Assembly: GCA_965214835.1 (NCBI GenBank)
Contig: CBDCCK010000002.1
Span: 2,464,001-2,528,000 of the forward strand
DNA length: 64,000 bases
From: Nitrosopumilaceae archaeon
GTDB taxonomy: Archaea > Thermoproteota > Nitrososphaeria > Nitrososphaerales > Nitrosopumilaceae
Direction of reading: 5' to 3'
In this document: in pieces, positions 9,856 to 18,006 of the stretch
How the letters are laid out: each line of letters starts with the position of its first letter
Position numbering within the stretch: the first letter of the stretch is position 1
Made by a program: the position numbers and the translations under genes
Notes under the pieces: generated by a model
Database searches by the model: none
What the model saw: the letters and a program-made list of their open reading frames with translations, nothing else
Told to the model about the DNA's origin: nothing

Positions 9856-10599
9856 ATGTCGGTCAAAAACGTAATCAAGGACAACTATAACATGATGCTT
9901 CTCAAGGACTACCTACGGGAGAAGATCAAGGATGCGGGATTCTCCCACGTCGAGATGGCAAAGACGCCCACGGGTACCAGGGTCTCGCTGCATGTCACAA
10001 GGCCCGGAATAGTAATCGGCAGAAAGGGCTCCGGAATCAAGGAGCTGACGGAGGTTCTTGGCACGAGGTTCGGGCTGAAAAACCCGCAGATCTCAGTCGA
10101 GGAGATAGACAGGCCGGAGCTGTCGCCAAGCGTCATGTGCAACAGGATTGCCACGCACATCTCGCGCGGGATCGCATTCAGGCGCGCGACCATGTGGACG
10201 CTAAAGCAGATCATGGAGAGCGGCGCGATGGGCGTGCAGATTACGGTCTCAGGCAAGCTCAGGGGGGACAGATCGGCATTTGAAAAGCACACCCAGGGCG
10301 TGCTGCCAAGGGCCGGACACCATGCGGAGGTCATAGTATCGGAGGACGTCGCGCACGTAGAGACCCCGATGGGGCTGATCGGCGTCAGAATAAGGATTGC
10401 AAGAAAGGAGAAGGTGGTTCCGGAGTTTGAGATGAGGATCCCAAGGCCAAGGCAGGTCAAGGACGCAGAGACCGGAAAGATGCGGGACGAGACAGAAAAG
10501 GAGCGCAAGGCAAGGACAGAGTCCGAGCAGATTGCAATTGAGGAGGAGAAGATGAAGAACCTTGAGACGCTCGAAGAGGAGGAGGCGAGGCTAAAGTGA
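9856..10599 (+). CDS. rps3: 30S ribosomal protein S3
   Basis: KH motif [17 protein letters not shown]. Confidence 0.97.
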
Positions 10600-11062: not shown

Positions 11063-11382
11063 GCAGGAACATAGGACTGGATGTAAGCCCCCCGGGCGAG
11101 GAGTGTGCCGACGCGCACTGCCCGTTCCACGGAAGGCTGTCCGTCCGGGGAAAGCTCTTTGAGGGTATAGCCACGGGCACAAAGGCCAGGCAGACCATAA
11201 CCCTGCAAAAGGACGCGCCGACATACATGAGCAAGTTCAAGAGGTATGCAAGAAGCAAGAGCACCATCCACGCGCACGTGCCCGGATGCATCTCGGTTAG
11301 GGACGGGGACGTCGTCAAGACCGCAGAATGCAGGCCGATATCAAAGTCGGTATCATATGTGGTGGTGGAGGTCAGGCGGTAA
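11059..11382 (+). CDS. rps17: 30S ribosomal protein S17
   Basis: CPFHG.LSVRG, ECRPISK. Confidence 0.97.
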   Translation: MSRNIGLDVSPPGEECADAHCPFHGRLSVRGKLFEGIATGTKARQTITLQKDAPTYMSKFKRYARSKSTIHAHVPGCISVRDGDVVKTAECRPISKSVSYVVVEVRR

Positions 11383-11816
11383 TGTCGCAGGGACGCAGCA
11401 GGGGCAAGGCAAAGGGTGTCTCAGAGTTCAGGCCGTACGTGACCAAGGCGCTGCCAATTGGCGCCGAGATCGTATGTGCGGACAACTCGGGCGCCAAGAT
11501 CATAGAGATCGTGATGGTTCCCGGGCACAAGACTAGGGTCTCAAGGCTGCCGGCAGCCTCGGTGGGCGACTTTGTAAACGTGGTGGTAAAAAAGGGCCCG
11601 GCCGAGCTGAGAAAGCAGGTGTTCGGCGCGGTGGTCATCAGGCAAAAGTATCCGGTCAGGAGGCTAAACGGGGTACGGGTCGCCTTTGAGGACAATGCGG
11701 CGGTGCTCATGACCCCGGAGGGGGAGGCAAAGGGCACCGACATCAAGGGACCGGTTGCAGCAGAGGCCTCGGAGAAGTGGCCAAGGGTCGCAAACCTGGC
11801 ATCGATGGTGGTATAG
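11382..11816 (+). CDS. rpl14: 50S ribosomal protein L14
   Basis: CADNSGAK, FEDNAAV, IKGPVA. Confidence 0.97.
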   Translation: MSQGRSRGKAKGVSEFRPYVTKALPIGAEIVCADNSGAKIIEIVMVPGHKTRVSRLPAASVGDFVNVVVKKGPAELRKQVFGAVVIRQKYPVRRLNGVRVAFEDNAAVLMTPEGEAKGTDIKGPVAAEASEKWPRVANLASMVV

Positions 11817-11819
11817 GGG

Positions 11820-13028
11820 ATGAAGCCAACAAAGATGAGAAACTCGCAGATGTACCGCGCAGCCTACGCGGCTAAAAGCGCGCAGGTATCCAGCCCACTC
11901 TCAAAGAACCTGCAGGGCAAGTACGTAAAAAAGTCCGTCAGGATAGTCGCAGGTGACGCGGTCAGGGTAGTCAGGGGCGAGTACAAGGGGGTTGACGGCA
12001 AGGTCGCGCAGGTCGATACTGCAACCGGCAGGATATCAATAGAGGGAATCAAAAAGGAAAAGACCCGCGGGGACAAGTACGACGTGTTCATCCACGCATC
12101 AAACCTCATAGTCACCGATCTTGACACGGAGGATCCGTGGAGGATGAGAAAGCTAAAGGGAGACGGCAAAGCGCCATCCGGACAGGCATCCCGGGAGGAT
12201 TCAGGGGCCGAGGATGCTGCCCCCCAGCGGGTTCATCTGGGCATACCCGACTCTGAGCCGGCACCCACGGAGCAGGAGGGAGAGGATGCTGCCCCCCAGC
12301 GGGTTCATCTGGGCATACCCGACTCTGAGCCGGCACCCACGGAGGATCAAGCTGGAGAGCCAGTGCAGTCCGAGGAGCAGGCCGCTGATGATGCAGGCGC
12401 AGAGTCAGAGGATCAGGCCGGAGAGCCAGTGCAGTCCGAGGAGCAGGCCACCGATGATGCAGACACGGCCGGCGCAGAGTCCAAAGATCAAGCTGGAGAG
12501 CCAGTGCAGTCCGAGGAGCAGGCCACCGATGATGCAGGCGCAGAGTCCAAAGATCAAGCTGGAGAGCCAGTGCAGTCCGAGGAGCAGGCCGCTGATGATG
12601 CAGACACGGCCGGCGCAGAGTCCAAAGATCAAGCTGGAGAGCCAGTGCAGTCCGAACAGCAGGCCGCTGATGATGCAGGCGCAGAGTCAGAGGATCAGGC
12701 CGGAGAGCCAGTGCAGTCCGAGGAGCAGGCCACCGATGATGCAGACACGGCCGGCGCAGAGTCAGAGGATCAGGCCGGAGAGCCAGTGCAGTCCGAGGAG
12801 CAGGCCACCGATGATGCAGGCGCAGAGTCAGAGGATCAGGCCGGAGAGCCAGTGCAGTCCGAGGAGCAGGCCACCGATGATGCAGACACGGCCGGCGCAG
12901 AGTCCGAGCAGGAACAAACAAAGAGCAAGGAAAGGTCATGGATGTCACGGTTCCGGTCACGTGTGACACGGACGTCAGAACCGGAACAAACTAAAGACAA
13001 AGAAAAGTCAGGAGATGCAGAAGAATAA
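11820..13028 (+). CDS. rpl24: 50S ribosomal protein L24 with a ~290-aa acidic repetitive C-terminal extension
   Basis: KOW motif GDAVRVVRGEYKG and IHASNL in the first ~112 aa; frame stays open to a stop overlapping the rps4e ATG. Confidence 0.93.
   Translation: MKPTKMRNSQMYRAAYAAKSAQVSSPLSKNLQGKYVKKSVRIVAGDAVRVVRGEYKGVDGKVAQVDTATGRISIEGIKKEKTRGDKYDVFIHASNLIVTDLDTEDPWRMRKLKGDGKAPSGQASREDSGAEDAAPQRVHLGIPDSEPAPTEQEGEDAAPQRVHLGIPDSEPAPTEDQAGEPVQSEEQAADDAGAESEDQAGEPVQSEEQATDDADTAGAESKDQAGEPVQSEEQATDDAGAESKDQAGEPVQSEEQAADDADTAGAESKDQAGEPVQSEQQAADDAGAESEDQAGEPVQSEEQATDDADTAGAESEDQAGEPVQSEEQATDDAGAESEDQAGEPVQSEEQATDDADTAGAESEQEQTKSKERSWMSRFRSRVTRTSEPEQTKDKEKSGDAEE
12210..12908 (+). repeat. in-frame tandem repeats in rpl24: two 72-nt-period units, then 8 units alternating 66/75 nt
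   Basis: EDAAPQRVHLGIPDSEPAPTE x2; DQAGEPVQSEEQA(A/T)DDA(DTA)GAES(E/K) x8 at 12345..12908. Confidence 0.95.
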
Positions 13029-13744
13029 TGGTAAGCATATCGGGAAGCAAAAAGCTCAAGCGCCAGATGGCGCCGCTGTTCTGGGGAATCGGCAGGAAGG
13101 ACAAGAGGTTCGTAGTAACGGTAAGGCCGGGCCCGCACCCCAAGAGCCAGTCAATCCCAAGCGCGGTATTTCTGAGAGATACGCTGAGGATTGTCAGCTC
13201 GCTGAGGGAGGCAAAGTCGGCCATCTATTCTGGCAGCGTAAGGGTGGACGGCATAGTCAGGAGGTCACTGCACCACGGCATAGGACTGATGGACGTAGTA
13301 GAGCTGGACAACGTCGAGGATGTCTACAGGCTGGTTCCGGGAAGGGGCGCGCCGCTGACGCCGATAAAGATTAGTCCCGAGGAGAAGGCAAAGAAGCTCT
13401 GCAGGGTCACATCAAAGGTGTCAATCAGGGGCAAAAGGACGCAGATAGGGCTCCATGACGGGAGAACGATCATTGCCGACACGGATGCAAGGCCGGGCGA
13501 TACATGCGTGGTTCAGATCCCCGAGCAAAAAATACTGGAGACCATACGGCTCGAGGAGGGCGCACAAATCATAGTTACAAAGGGTACAAACGCAGGACAG
13601 ACCGGCACCATTGAAAAGATCGAGGGTGGAACCTTCAACCTTCCGCGGAGGGCGCAAGTCACCCTCGGGGACAGAAGGATCGAGATTCAGACCGACAACA
13701 CGATGGCAATAGGAAGGAACAGTCCGGCAATCCAGATACGGTGA
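13028..13744 (+). CDS. rps4e: 30S ribosomal protein S4e
   Basis: LKRQMAP, PGPH, LHDGR, G.NAG..G. Confidence 0.97.
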   Translation: MVSISGSKKLKRQMAPLFWGIGRKDKRFVVTVRPGPHPKSQSIPSAVFLRDTLRIVSSLREAKSAIYSGSVRVDGIVRRSLHHGIGLMDVVELDNVEDVYRLVPGRGAPLTPIKISPEEKAKKLCRVTSKVSIRGKRTQIGLHDGRTIIADTDARPGDTCVVQIPEQKILETIRLEEGAQIIVTKGTNAGQTGTIEKIEGGTFNLPRRAQVTLGDRRIEIQTDNTMAIGRNSPAIQIR

Positions 13745-15822: not shown

Positions 15823-16050
15823 CCATACGTTCTGGTTCTACAAGGGCTTTTTCGGCCGGGTGCAGGCGGCGCACTGCATGGCAGTATCCCGCGGCATCCT
15901 ACCTGACTGTAGTGCCATACAGCTGGGGCCCTTCAGTGCTTTCGGACGTGTTTTGTCATATCTGGTGGGGCAATAATTAAAATAATTGCCCCAGCTTGCC
16001 CTTGGCCAGACGTGCATACGTATTTTATCCGTGAAAAAGGCAGTACGGAC

Positions 16051-17712
16051 ATGGCACAGCAGGTTCCAGACATCATACCGGTACGGATGCTTACGCAGTA
16101 TGCGTATTGCAAGCGTCTCTCATACATGGAATGGGTCCAGGGCGAGTTTGAATACAATACGGAGGTGATAGAGGGCAAACATAATCACCGCAACGTGGAC
16201 AAGTCATCTGAGAGAAGAAAGGCAGGAAAGGAGGAAGATGAAAAGATCCATACGCGCTCCGTTACGCTCTCTGATGACAAAATTGGCCTCGTAGCAAAGA
16301 TGGATCTGCTGGAGATAAGCGGCAGTCATGCCACCCCGGTAGAGTACAAACGAGGCAGCACGCCAGATACTGCCGAGAGGACGCATCTGGATCACAGGAT
16401 ACAGGTGTGCGCGCAGGGGCTCCTGCTGCGTGCCAACGGATACGAATGCACAAAGGGCATAGTCTACTATGTGTCCTCAAAGCAGCGCGTAGAGGTGGAC
16501 TTTGATGACAGGATGGTGGCAGAGACGCTGCAGATGATACACGACATGAAGGAGACGATGGCCCTGGGCTCCATGCCTCCCCCGCTGGTAGACAGCCCCA
16601 AGTGCCCGAGATGCTCGCTTGTTGGCATATGCATGCCCGATGAGACCAACATGCTCTCCGATGTCGGGTCAGGTACGAGCCAAGAGCGGATCCGCAGAAT
16701 GTATCCAATGAGGGACGACGCGGTTCCGGTATACGTGCAAGAGCAGGGCGCGCGCGTTACAAAGTCCAATGACCGCATACATGTCATGATAAACGGGCAG
16801 GTGGCAAGGAAGATCCGCCTCATTGACATCTCTGAGATCACGCTGTTTGGAAACGTGCAGATTACAACCCAGGCCGTACGGGAGCTGTGCAACAGAAACA
16901 TACCCATATGCTACATGACCTATGGCGGGTGGTTTACAGGCATGACCACCGGCATGGTACACAAGAACATAGAGCTTCGCATGGCCCAGCATAAAAAGCA
17001 CTCGGCCAACAACGCGAGGATGGACATAGCCAGGAGCATAGTATACGGGAAGATCAAAAACTGCACTACGCTGCTGCGCAGAAACCACAAGGGCATGCCG
17101 GAGAAGGTGCTTGGCAGGCTTGACGAGTTTGCAGATCAAGCAAGGCACGCCCGCAGGTATGACGCCCTGCTGGGCATCGAGGGCATGGCGGCAAGGGTGT
17201 ACTTTTCAGAGTTCAATGGCATGATAAAGGACGAATCCGTCGGCTTTGAGTTCACGGAAAGGAACAGGAGGCCTCCCCGCGATCCCATCAATGCGCTCCT
17301 GTCATTTCTGTACTCTGTCCTGACGCGGCAGGCCACAGTTACTGCAGGCAGGGTCGGGCTGGATCCGTATCTTGGGTTTTTGCACATGCCAAAGTACGGG
17401 CGTCCCGCCCTGGCACTTGATCTGATAGAGGAGTTCAGGCCGCTTGTTGCAGACTCTGTGTGCATCACGGTCATAAACGGCGGTGAGGTTACAAACAAGG
17501 ACATGATAAAGACAAAATTCGGCGTCAACATGACGTCTGCGGGAAGGCGCGCAGTCATAGCCGCATACGAGAGGCGCATGGACTCTACCGTGACACACCC
17601 GGCCCTTGGCTATTCGGCAAGCTACCGGCGCATCATGGAGACTCAGGCAAGGCTGCTCTCAAGGCACCTGCTAGACGAGATACCCTCATATCCTGCATTT
17701 AGGACAAGATGA
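16051..17712 (+). CDS. cas1: Cas4-Cas1 fusion (type I-G)
   Basis: Cas4 motifs YAYCKR, PVEYKRG, CPRCSLVGIC; Cas1 motifs LGIEG.AA..YF, RRPPRDP.NALLS, LALDLIEEFRP. Confidence 0.96.
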   Translation: MAQQVPDIIPVRMLTQYAYCKRLSYMEWVQGEFEYNTEVIEGKHNHRNVDKSSERRKAGKEEDEKIHTRSVTLSDDKIGLVAKMDLLEISGSHATPVEYKRGSTPDTAERTHLDHRIQVCAQGLLLRANGYECTKGIVYYVSSKQRVEVDFDDRMVAETLQMIHDMKETMALGSMPPPLVDSPKCPRCSLVGICMPDETNMLSDVGSGTSQERIRRMYPMRDDAVPVYVQEQGARVTKSNDRIHVMINGQVARKIRLIDISEITLFGNVQITTQAVRELCNRNIPICYMTYGGWFTGMTTGMVHKNIELRMAQHKKHSANNARMDIARSIVYGKIKNCTTLLRRNHKGMPEKVLGRLDEFADQARHARRYDALLGIEGMAARVYFSEFNGMIKDESVGFEFTERNRRPPRDPINALLSFLYSVLTRQATVTAGRVGLDPYLGFLHMPKYGRPALALDLIEEFRPLVADSVCITVINGGEVTNKDMIKTKFGVNMTSAGRRAVIAAYERRMDSTVTHPALGYSASYRRIMETQARLLSRHLLDEIPSYPAFRTR

Positions 17713-17715
17713 GGC

Positions 17716-18006
17716 ATGCGCAACAGGTATCTGGTGTGTTATGATGTCAGCGATCCCGTGCGGCTTGTCAAGACGTACAAAAAGATGAACGGATACGGGG
17801 ATCCGGCGCAGTACTCTGTCTTTATGTGCGACCTTAGCGCAGGGGAGCTGGTAATGATGAAGGAAGAGCTAGGAGATCTGCTAAACCTTGACGAGGACAG
17901 GGTTCTCATAGTGGACATTGGGCCTGCAGAAAAGCAGGACAGGCGCATAATGACGATGGGGGCGGCGCCATCTAGAACCAAAAGGGAGGCATCCATCGTA
18001 GTATGA
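17716..18006 (+). CDS. cas2: CRISPR-associated endoribonuclease Cas2
   Basis: YLVCYDVSD, QYSVF. Confidence 0.96.
   Translation: MRNRYLVCYDVSDPVRLVKTYKKMNGYGDPAQYSVFMCDLSAGELVMMKEELGDLLNLDEDRVLIVDIGPAEKQDRRIMTMGAAPSRTKREASIVV

What the first reader, a model, noticed from the sequence alone, without database searches (positions are those of the whole stretch)
11820..13028. Ribosomal protein L24 with a ~290-aa acidic tether ending in an FtsY-like amphipathic motif
Seen: after the ~112-aa L24 core the frame continues through two 21-aa repeats and eight D/E-rich units alternating 22 and 25 aa (a 47-aa dimer x4). It then switches to SKERSWMSRFRSRVTRTSE, and the stop overlaps the rps4e ATG. All units keep frame. 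Knowledge: uL24 rims the peptide exit tunnel near the Sec translocon docking site; bacterial FtsY has an acidic disordered A-domain followed by a basic/aromatic membrane-targeting helix. Thaumarchaeal L24 often has a shorter charged tail. Inference: a length-variable flexible linker that may tether ribosomes to the membrane or chaperone nascent chains.
Basis: partly seen in the sequence, partly recalled or inferred. Interest (0 to 1): 0.75.

Follow-up and report, generated by a model that had tools for sequence, protein, structure and literature searches.

The report
Ribosomal protein uL24 with giant acidic tail
This archaeal ribosomal protein really does carry a 289-residue acidic repeat tail, but it is the extreme case of a fast-changing disordered tail that its whole family has, and the proposed membrane-anchoring motif is not supported.

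Summary
ORF 11820-13028 (+) is a 402-aa uL24. It has a core (aa 1-113), then a 289-aa tail built from a 72-nt x2 array and a 141-nt x4 array, and its stop overlaps the rps4e ATG.

The tail is real. The gene is single-copy, and unitig depths in a public run track the assembled copy numbers.

It is the longest example of a family-wide trait. In Nitrosopumilaceae, 24 of 25 genus-level genomes have a repeat-built uL24 tail of 32-294 aa, while other families of the order have none. Every species has a different repeat. Copy number differs between near-identical strains. Net acidity follows loss of lysine in GC-rich genomes. AlphaFold2 predicts disorder.

The "FtsY-like" motif is absent from all four congeners. 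It is no more amphipathic than shuffles of itself and does not match the lineage's own conserved FtsY C-terminal end. This genome's FtsY has its own acidic extension.

Verdict: a disordered, slippage-driven hydrophilic tail beside the tunnel exit. The flexible, length-variable linker is supported; the membrane tether is not. This is a new variant of a known kind, of moderate interest.

The parts
11328..11816 (+). Upstream gene rpl14 (uL14); operon context
   Evidence: Pfam Ribosomal_L14, E 9.9e-36. The ORF as listed may start too early.
11820..13028 (+). rpl24 (uL24) ORF, 402 aa including tail; stop included
   Evidence: Single copy in the 3.22-Mb genome.
11820..12158 (+). uL24 core, aa 1-113 (KOW-containing fold)
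   Evidence: PF16906 aa 3-113 and TIGR01080 aa 4-113. AlphaFold2 pLDDT is 69-97 per 10-residue block over residues 1-120. Invariant G45, D46, R52, G53 in 31 sequences.
12159..12209 (+). Short non-repeat linker, aa 114-130
   Evidence: pLDDT about 50-69.
12210..12344 (+). 72-nt tandem repeat x1.9: two identical 21-aa units (EDAAPQRVHLGIPDSEPAPTE) at aa 131-151 and 155-175
   Evidence: TRF 100% identity. A related RVYLGIPES occurs once in the nearest relative's tail.
12345..12908 (+). Eight acidic units, aa 176-363, alternating 22 and 25 aa (141-nt dimer x4)
   Evidence: TRF period 141, 4.0 copies, 92%, no indels. Unit table. Unitig depths in run X1 track the assembled multiplicities.
12903..12938 (+). 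First copy of a 12-aa direct repeat (SEQEQTKSKERS)
   Evidence: 27 of 36 nt and 9 of 12 aa identical to the second copy.
12939..12974 (+).
   Evidence: Absent from congeners. No source elsewhere in the genome; longest other match is 19 nt.
12975..13025 (+). Second copy of the 12-aa repeat plus the acidic end (SEPEQTKDKEKSGDAEE)
   Evidence: EPEQTKD is shared with the nearest relative's end.
13026..13030 (+). TAATG stop/start overlap with rps4e
   Evidence: The same TAATGG junction is in 40 of 56 relatives' loci, counted by eye.
13028..13744 (+). Downstream gene rps4e (eS4)
   Evidence: Pfam Ribosomal_S4e and RS4NT.

Best explanation
This is the single rpl24 gene of a Nitrosopumilaceae archaeon.

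What it is. The normal uL24 core is followed, in the same frame and with no stop, by a 289-aa polyanionic, low-complexity extension that is predicted to be intrinsically disordered. It is the most extreme known case of a family-wide trait. Nitrosopumilaceae uL24 proteins carry a hypervariable C-terminal tail made of short tandem repeats. The tail sits between the conserved core and a conserved stop/start junction with rps4e.

How it evolves. The tail grows, shrinks and is replaced by replication slippage or unequal recombination. Each species therefore has a different unit, and strains differ in copy number. Its composition drifts with genomic GC: lysine-rich and roughly neutral to basic in AT-rich genomes, lysine-poor and so net acidic in GC-rich ones such as this.

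How it works. Shown: anatomy, variability, predicted disorder, and lack of sequence conservation. Inferred: uL24 borders the polypeptide exit (established knowledge), so the tail should project from the solvent side as a flexible hydrophilic brush beside the exit. Any function would then depend on bulk properties (presence, length, charge, disorder), not on a sequence motif. The basic W-M-x-R-F patch is a recent, species-specific insertion inside a duplicated terminal element. It is not a conserved membrane anchor.
For: Identity and anatomy. Single copy, with the repeat unit found nowhere else in the genome.

Family-wide trait:
- In one search, 41 of 41 genomes have uL24. Open frames are 149-403 aa in 24 of the 25 genomes of family f1 (own included) and 118 aa in the other. 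They are 107-140 aa in all 16 genomes of 16 other families of the order.
- Measured from the conserved W-R after the core, f1 tails are 32-294 aa in 24 of 25 genomes. They are 8-14 aa in 5 of 5 outgroup proteins extracted.
- In a 301-genome family sample, 282 had a match. The 150 listed open frames ranged 134-403 aa, and the window's was the longest.
- A search for longer uL24s among 5.8 billion clusters gave 38 proteins. Thirty-seven were 208-314 aa and one was a 526-aa L24-S4e fusion. None was as long as 402 aa.

Different repeats per species:
- DLAKD x16 in congener G003.
- About 27-aa units x3 in G002.
- AKPEEVV x13, QVHGEQYDE x4 and others.

Copy-number variation:
- P0003 (270 aa) against P0004 and P0005 (221 aa).
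- Run X5, from another study, has a 540-nt flank that is identical. It holds a 379-nt contig that skips 495 nt as laid (12269 to 12765). Because 12243-12269 recurs at 12315-12341, my reading is a 423-nt (3 x 141) deletion. Its depth is 37.9 against 42.6 for the flank.

Not an assembly expansion in run X1. Depth relative to the flank was:
- 1.84x for 2-copy unitigs.
- 2.86x for 4-copy unitigs.
- 0.8-1.0x for single-copy internal junction unitigs.

Disorder: core pLDDT 69-97 per 10-residue block over residues 1-120, tail 41-52, with no secondary structure except H371-374.

GC drift across 50 tails, by Spearman correlation with flank GC:
- Lys fraction: rho -0.51.
- D+E fraction: rho 0.03.
- Tail length: rho +0.43.

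Conserved TAATGG junction: 40 of 56 loci.

Motif not conserved and not special.
Against: - A tail is kept in 24 of 25 genus-level genomes, on one of the cell's most abundant proteins, in organisms that often have small genomes. That argues for selection on something and against pure neutrality.
- The eight units differ at only three amino-acid positions (A/T, E/K, one E/Q). This could reflect recent expansion or constraint.
- The 4-copy unitig depth was 2.86x, not 4x, so the exact copy number in the population is not settled.
- The X5 'one dimer' form rests on one short-read-derived contig and could be a graph collapse.
- The GC correlations ignore shared ancestry (kin are not independent).
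- There is no RNA or protein evidence that the tail is present on mature ribosomes. The location near the tunnel exit is from general knowledge of uL24, not measured here.
- The hydrophobic-moment metric also scores the conserved FtsY end low (0.42), so it discriminates poorly.
Confidence: 0.7

Rival explanations
1. First reader's model. The acidic tail is a flexible tether, and the basic-aromatic patch near its end is an FtsY-like amphipathic membrane-binding helix. Together they hold ribosomes at the membrane or translocon.
For: - W374, M375, F378 and V382 would fall on one face of a helix. This is read directly from the sequence; the maximum 11-residue hydrophobic moment is 0.60.
- The same genome's FtsY shows that an acidic linker followed by a basic-aromatic end exists in this lineage.
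- uL24 borders the tunnel exit (established knowledge).
Against: - The motif is absent from 4 of 4 congeners and from all other tails read.
- 1541 of 5000 shuffles reach its moment. Mean hydrophobicity is -0.69, with only 4 hydrophobic residues among 19.
- The profile of 18 FtsY ends scores it -3.0 bits, rank 1621 of 4981.
- AlphaFold2 shows only a 4-residue helix at low confidence.
- It is not terminal, and it sits next to about 70 net negative charges.
- FtsY keeps its own extension.
- uL24 tail and FtsY extension do not co-occur strictly. G016 has a tail but no FtsY extension. G008 and G038 have the FtsY end but no uL24 tail.
Confidence: 0.06
2. The tail has a specific adaptive role at the exit-tunnel face that depends on its charge and length. 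It would act as an electrostatic or entropic spacer that tunes docking of ribosomes to SecYEG, the membrane, or exit-site factors. It may work in concert with the lineage's FtsY repeat extension.
For: - Presence of a tail is conserved in 24 of 25 genus-level genomes of the family and in none of 16 outgroup families.
- FtsY gained a repeat extension in much the same lineage (PMC2905702, passages read).
- In eukaryotes uL24/RPL26 is the site where UFM1 is attached to release 60S subunits from ER translocons (PMC10937380, abstract and passages).
Against: - Charge ranges from +19 to -67 and length from 26 to 294 aa across the family. That is hard to reconcile with a tuned electrostatic role.
- Charge tracks genomic GC.
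- The streamlined 0.8-Mb genus has no tail (L030).
- Co-occurrence with the FtsY extension is not strict.
Confidence: 0.12
3. The Arg/Ser-rich basic patch is a newly acquired interaction element of another kind. It could fold back on rRNA, pair with the protein's own polyanionic tail, or serve as a short linear motif for a partner protein.
For: - Six R/K in the 12-19 residues, and this is the only basic island in the tail.
- It is identical in contigs of three runs from different studies. These are the same species, so this is weak evidence.
Against: - It is species-specific.
- It has no homologue elsewhere in the genome.
- Low AlphaFold2 confidence.
- There is no direct evidence of any interaction.
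Confidence: 0.08
4. Artefact: the repeat array, or its length, is an assembly expansion, or the tail is not really translated as part of uL24.
For: - No single record spans the array.
- The 4-copy unitig has 2.86x rather than 4x depth.
- The repeat region is open in several frames, so openness alone is weak evidence.
Against: - The genome is in 2 contigs.
- Single-copy internal junction unitigs are present at flank depth in run X1.
- Four studies hold the stretch.
- There is no stop between core and tail, so translation must run through it.
- The frame ends exactly at the conserved TAATG junction.
- All relatives have tails.
Confidence: 0.03

Closest known systems
Archaeal/eukaryotic ribosomal protein uL24 (L24P/L26 family; TIGR01080, PF16906)
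   Same: The core, aa 1-113, matches above curated cut-offs. The gene sits between rpl14 and rps4e and is single-copy.
   Different: Typical archaeal members, including other families of the same order, are 107-140 aa as open frames. This one adds 289 aa of acidic repeats.
C-terminal repeat 'R region' of FtsY in marine Crenarchaeota/Thaumarchaeota (Zwieb and Bhuiyan 2010, PMC2905702; passages read)
   Same: Same lineage, and also a translation/targeting protein. It too is a C-terminal, tandem-repeat, Pro/Glu-rich extension that is variable even within a subgroup, with unknown function. It was seen here in relatives as PEPK, TPETTQD and TKEPEP repeats.
   Different: The FtsY extension also contains a conserved ~45-aa module and a conserved basic-aromatic terminal end, present in 18 of the 29 relatives' loci read. 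The uL24 tail has no conserved module that I could show.
Low-complexity regions and extensions of ribosomal proteins in general
   Same: Terminal, charged, low-complexity, lineage-specific additions to conserved r-proteins.
- Ntountoumi et al. 2019 (PMC6821194, passages read) report 117 LCRs in archaeal r-proteins, rich in A, E and K.
- Lysine-rich H1-like extensions of mosquito RpL23a and RpS6 were seen only as a reference entry in PMC11764897.
   Different: L24 does not occur in the text of PMC6821194 (0 occurrences); its supplements could not be seen. The size here (289 aa, net charge about -70) and the family-wide turnover of repeat units are unusual.
Bacterial FtsY A domain plus membrane-targeting helix
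   Same: An acidic disordered stretch followed by a short basic/aromatic patch.
   Different: There is no NG GTPase domain. The patch is not conserved, not terminal, not more amphipathic than shuffles, and unlike the lineage's own FtsY end. The order of elements in bacterial FtsY is recalled, not tested.
Eukaryotic uL24 (RPL26) as UFMylation target at ER translocons (PMC10937380; abstract and passages)
   Same: The same ribosomal protein is used as a handle that affects ribosome-translocon association.
   Different: That is a short basic tail modified by UFM1. The position of the acceptor lysines in the C-terminal tail is recalled, not seen in the passages. No UFM1 system was looked for here.

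Membership tests
uL24 (archaeal/eukaryotic L24P/L26) | Match to the family profile above the curated cut-off | tested here: met
   TIGR01080 85.6 bits (cut-off 47.65), aa 4-113. PF16906 49.4 bits (cut-off 28.8), aa 3-113.
uL24 (archaeal/eukaryotic L24P/L26) | KOW motif | tested here: inconclusive
   PF00467 21.4 bits, just under the 22.3 cut-off, aa 45-75. G45, D46, R52 and G53 are invariant in the 31-sequence alignment.
uL24 (archaeal/eukaryotic L24P/L26) | Operon position between rpl14 and rps4e; single copy | tested here: met
FtsY-type acidic domain plus membrane-targeting amphipathic helix | Acidic, disordered stretch | tested here: met
   87 D+E against 17 K+R in 289 aa. pLDDT 41-52.
FtsY-type acidic domain plus membrane-targeting amphipathic helix | Amphipathic helix beyond what composition gives | tested here: inconclusive
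   Maximum moment 0.60, reached by 1541 of 5000 shuffles. Mean hydrophobicity -0.69. Only H371-374 is predicted. The metric also scores the conserved FtsY end low (0.42).
FtsY-type acidic domain plus membrane-targeting amphipathic helix | Motif conserved among orthologues | tested here: not met
   Absent from 4 of 4 congeners and from all other tails read.
FtsY-type acidic domain plus membrane-targeting amphipathic helix | Resemblance to the lineage's own FtsY C-terminal basic-aromatic end | tested here: not met
   HMM of 18 relatives' ends scores own FtsY 20.1 bits (rank 1). The uL24 patch scores -3.0 bits, rank 1621 of 4981 domains in 7340 ORFs.
FtsY-type acidic domain plus membrane-targeting amphipathic helix | SRP-GTPase NG domain | tested here: not met
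   No SRP54 domain in the protein. The genome's FtsY and SRP54 lie elsewhere.
FtsY-type acidic domain plus membrane-targeting amphipathic helix | Lipid binding | not testable with these tools
   Needs liposome or in-cell assays.
Low-complexity tandem-repeat extensions of translation/targeting proteins | Terminal, low-complexity, built of tandem repeats | tested here: met
   Top-4 residues make up 75% of the richest 40-aa window, the highest value among the window ORFs listed.
Low-complexity tandem-repeat extensions of translation/targeting proteins | Presence conserved but sequence and length not; copy number varies among close relatives | tested here: met
Low-complexity tandem-repeat extensions of translation/targeting proteins | Predicted disorder | tested here: met
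Eukaryotic RPL26-type regulated tail (UFMylation) | UFM1 conjugation system and acceptor lysines | not tested
   Not searched. The tail has only 9 Lys from aa 114.

The most novel reading that the evidence does not exclude
Nitrosopumilaceae remodelled the ribosome-membrane interface with two lineage-specific, tunable disordered arms. One is the uL24 tail at the tunnel exit. The other is the FtsY C-terminal repeat extension with its conserved basic-aromatic end. On this reading the uL24 tail is a functional spacer or brush that sets how ribosomes approach SecYEG and the membrane. In this species it would have been pushed to 289 aa and about -70 net charge, with a new basic patch acting as a reversible anchor to membrane, rRNA or the tail itself.
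Probability: 0.1. Interest if true: 0.7.

Novelty: new variant of a known kind. Interest (0 to 1): 0.4.

Why it matters
uL24 borders the polypeptide exit, where SRP, the translocon and nascent-chain factors dock. A universally conserved protein at that site has carried a freely mutating tail of 26-294 residues for the whole history of one abundant archaeal family. The tail's charge swings from about +19 to -67. This gives a natural experiment on how much bulk and charge the exit face tolerates, and on whether such tails do anything. It also shows composition drift with GC and repeat slippage inside a core housekeeping gene.

Practically, it warns annotators that the long frame is real and that tail motifs seen in one genome should not be over-read.

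I found no description of uL24 tails in this family in the searches. The analogous FtsY repeat region has been in print since 2010.

Tried and rejected
1. Conserved terminal tip. Seventeen relatives share a KETKVEK...KEDEN-type end. The window's end scores no better than shuffles of its own tail (167 of 200 reach it), so homology of the tip across the family is not shown. The acidic last codons may instead reflect the purine-rich region before the overlapping rps4e start; that is inference only.

2. Resemblance of the uL24 patch to some FtsY end variants, seen by eye. The profile test rejected it.

3. A source for the 36-nt insert elsewhere in the genome. Only chance matches of 19 nt or less were found.

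4. The idea that this genome is generally full of acidic tracts. Only 9 ORFs of 100 aa or more have a comparably acidic 100-aa window, and uL24 ranks second. The genome is rich in tandem repeats, though: 217 arrays with TRF score of at least 100, with the uL24 array 29th.

5. Expression. No RNA holder was listed among the runs, so nothing can be said about expression.

6. Literature.
- Searches found nothing on thaumarchaeal uL24 tails.
- PMC11082331 (cryo-ET of an ammonia-oxidizing archaeon from oligotrophic oceans) has none of six relevant terms.
- Supplements of all papers were closed and may hold relevant tables, for example the LCR lists of PMC6821194.

8. Not used: complex prediction, fold search, the search of protein representatives, the protein-atlas search, and the third homologous-protein search. 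A disordered low-complexity tail gives them nothing to work on.

9. Unpublished genomes. The 282-of-301 tally includes seven genomes flagged as unpublished (G275, G109, G108, G094, G273, G243, G221). No sequence was taken from them. Only G275's open-frame length appeared in the list, and no other claim rests on them.
Full report
**Observation**

The + strand ORF 11820..13028 encodes 402 aa. It starts 4 nt after the stop of the upstream gene and ends in TAA, whose last base is the A of the next gene's ATG (TAATG).

- Neighbours: the upstream gene is uL14 and the downstream gene is eS4 (Pfam).
- Core: residues 3-113 match Ribosomal_L26 (49.4 bits, cut-off 28.8). Residues 4-113 match TIGR01080 rplX_A_E (85.6 bits, cut-off 47.65).
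- First array: Tandem Repeats Finder reports 12210-12344, period 72 nt, 1.9 copies, 100% identical.
- Second array: it reports 12345-12905, period 141 nt, 4.0 copies, 92% matches, no indels, score 996.
- In protein terms, there are two identical 21-aa units at aa 131-151 and 155-175. Eight units follow at aa 176-363 that alternate strictly between 22 and 25 aa. The longer unit is the shorter one plus DTA.

So the anatomy is as described, with two corrections. The protein runs on for 15 residues after the motif. The 12 most basic residues (WMSRFRSRVTRT) lie between two copies of a 12-aa element that share 27 of 36 nt.

From aa 114 the tail has 87 D+E and 17 K+R. Its GC content is 0.62-0.66, against 0.55-0.60 for the flanks and 0.526 for the genome.

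**Is it real?**

The window lies in a 3.22-Mb genome of 2 contigs. The gene is single-copy, and the only other match to the protein is the reverse strand of the same repeats.

Runs of six studies hold part of the stretch; I laid one run from each of four of them. All the records laid are short-read-derived contigs, so none spans the array. In run X1, however, the unitig depths follow the assembled multiplicities:

- the 2-copy unitig is at 1.84x the flank depth;
- a 4-copy unitig is at 2.86x;
- three single-copy junction unitigs, one of them internal to the array, are at 0.8-1.0x.

That is what a multi-copy array arranged as assembled should give. The 2.86x figure leaves the exact number open.

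In run X5, from a different study, the 540-nt upstream flank is identical. A 379-nt contig joins the end of the 72-nt repeat directly to position 12765. As laid this skips 495 nt. Because the 27 nt on the left side occur in both copies of the 72-nt repeat, it equals a 423-nt (3 x 141) deletion. The contig's depth is 37.9 against 42.6 for the flank. I read this as a strain with one dimer instead of four. A graph collapse cannot be excluded.

The motif region is identical in X5 and X7, but these are the same species.

**What the relatives show**

I searched the core in 40 relatives. All have uL24.

- In the window's family, open frames are 149-403 aa in 24 of 25 genomes (own included) and 118 aa in one genus with 0.8-Mb genomes.
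- In 16 genomes of 16 other families of the order they are 107-140 aa.
- Named records fetched with the same alignment are Nitrosopumilus, Nitrosarchaeum, Cenarchaeum and unclassified Nitrosopumilaceae, so the family is Nitrosopumilaceae.
- In a wider sample of 301 family genomes, 282 had a match. The 150 listed open frames ranged 134-403 aa, and the window's was the longest. That tally includes seven genomes flagged unpublished, from which nothing else was used.
- A search for longer uL24s in the 5.8-billion-cluster collection gave 38 proteins. Thirty-seven were 208-314 aa and one was a 526-aa L24-S4e fusion. The window's own protein is not in the collection.

Reading the tails shows low-complexity tandem repeats that differ from species to species:

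- PKETK-like Lys/Glu/Thr/Pro repeats in most genera;
- ESTKPA, AKPEEVV x13 and an 18-aa unit x5 in others;
- in the window's own genus, DLAKD x16, a ~27-aa acidic unit x3, and a ~25-aa unit x2.

Near-identical proteins of 221 and 270 aa differ only by repeat copies. The tail always ends at the same place: 40 of 56 loci show the TAATGG stop/start junction with rps4e (counted by eye).

The trait is therefore old, family-wide and in constant turnover. The window holds its extreme.

**Why acidic?**

I compared the GC content of the flanking DNA with tail composition across 50 tails of at least 25 aa.

- Flank GC correlates with the lysine fraction at rho -0.51.
- It correlates with the D+E fraction at rho 0.03.
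- It correlates with tail length at rho +0.43.

AT-rich genomes (GC 0.33-0.39) have 21-41% Lys and net charge near zero or positive. GC-rich ones (including all five of the window's genus) have 4-15% Lys and become net acidic because Asp and Glu stay. This fits a weakly constrained region whose composition follows mutational bias. The test does not correct for shared ancestry.

Within this genome such acidity is rare. Only 9 ORFs have a comparable 100-aa window, and uL24 ranks second.

**The motif**

- It is absent from all four congeneric genomes. That includes the nearest one (79% identical core), whose tail ends with a single EPEQTKD... element where the window has two flanking the basic insert.
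- Its best 11-residue helical hydrophobic moment is 0.60, but 1541 of 5000 shuffles of the same 18 residues reach it. Mean hydrophobicity is -0.69.
- AlphaFold2 with a 31-sequence alignment gives a confident core (pLDDT 69-97 per 10-residue block over residues 1-120) and an unstructured tail (41-52). There is a 4-residue helix at 371-374.
- No source for the insert exists elsewhere in the genome.

The genome's FtsY (432 aa, outside the window) starts directly with the NG core, with no N-terminal acidic domain. It has a 132-aa C-terminal extension of net charge -16 that ends in a basic-aromatic stretch.

Many family members have the same modular extension:

- a hypervariable Pro/Glu/Lys/Thr repeat linker;
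- a conserved ~45-aa module;
- an acidic linker;
- a conserved basic-aromatic end.

Most other families of the order stop 3-8 aa after the NG core. The repeat part has been in print as the FtsY 'R region' of marine Crenarchaeota and N. maritimus (PMC2905702, passages read).

A profile built from 18 relatives' ends ranks the genome's own FtsY first among 7340 ORFs (20.1 bits). It places the uL24 patch at rank 1621 of 4981 (-3.0 bits). So the lineage does have an acidic-linker-plus-basic-end design, but it is in FtsY itself, and the uL24 patch does not resemble it.

The two traits are also not strictly coupled. G016 has a uL24 tail but no FtsY extension. G008 and G038 have the FtsY end but no uL24 tail.

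**Mechanism**

Shown:
- a real, in-frame, predicted-disordered, polyanionic tail;
- a tail present family-wide;
- turnover of units and of copy number;
- composition tracking GC;
- no conserved motif.

Inferred:
- The tail expands and contracts by slippage or unequal recombination between the conserved core and the conserved rps4e junction.
- Because uL24 borders the polypeptide exit (established knowledge), the tail should form a flexible hydrophilic brush on that face.
- Any function depends on bulk properties.

I put about 0.7 on this reading. In its favour as something more than junk, a tail has been kept on a very abundant protein in 24 of 25 genus-level genomes. Against any finely tuned role, net charge ranges from about +19 to -67, and a streamlined genus has lost the tail.

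**Comparison with what is known**

- Low-complexity regions are known to be frequent in bacterial and archaeal ribosomal proteins (PMC6821194, passages). L24 is not mentioned in that paper's text.
- Lysine-rich H1-like extensions exist on insect r-proteins. I saw this only as a reference entry.
- In eukaryotes uL24/RPL26 is the UFM1 target that releases 60S subunits from ER translocons (PMC10937380, abstract). This shows that this position can matter for membrane association.
- My searches found no description of the Nitrosopumilaceae uL24 tails.

**Verdict**

I therefore rate this a new variant of a known kind.

Noticed in passing
G000:C2:1593630-1594925 (own genome, outside the window); relatives' loci L063-L087: FtsY of this family has a modular C-terminal extension. 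It consists of a hypervariable Pro/Glu/Lys/Thr repeat linker, a conserved ~45-aa module (DDPFEGI...PPPEND...WI..GRP), an acidic linker, and a conserved basic-aromatic end (…KPKKKRGLFGFFKK type). The end is present in 18 of the 29 relatives' loci read. Most other families of the order lack the extension. The repeat part is known as the 'R region' (PMC2905702). In the passages I read I did not see the conserved module or the terminal end described.
   Followed up: partly
window 18178 to at least 26000: Large CRISPR-like array: 107 copies of a 36-nt repeat (ATTTCCGCAACGATAAAGTTGCGGCCCCATTGAAGC) spaced about 72-76 nt apart, starting about 170 nt after a 96-aa ORF (17716-18006) and a 566-aa ORF (16012-17712). 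The ORFs were not examined.
   Followed up: partly
protein P0037: A 526-aa uL24-eS4 fusion in a relative. The reading frame changes inside the tail's repeat (APAKDKV units turn into SASQGQG units) and then runs into eS4. This is either a real frameshift or a sequencing error in the repeat.
   Followed up: no
window 12228-12254 and 12300-12326; L004 (G002): The only hydrophobic island of the tail, RVHLGIPDS, is present twice here and once as RVYLGIPES in the nearest relative. It may be a short shared element of these two species and was not seen in the other congeners.
   Followed up: partly
window 9856-10599: uS3 (247 aa as listed) ends in a ~45-aa mixed-charge Glu/Lys-rich tail. Among the listed ORFs of the ribosomal-protein cluster, only uL24 has a long low-complexity array.
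   Followed up: no
L030 (G008) and its genus (0.8-0.9-Mb genomes): The one genus of the family whose uL24 has no tail (111 aa) has the smallest genomes. Its FtsY still carries a 77-aa extension with a basic-aromatic end.
   Followed up: no
G000:C2, minus-strand ORF of 529 aa; several 84-92-aa ORFs: An ORF with a run of about 50 consecutive Glu is the most acidic stretch of the genome. Separately, at least eight near-identical short ORFs starting ...PGWKKNSLLSRRRM are scattered over the chromosome and are probably a repeated element.
   Followed up: no
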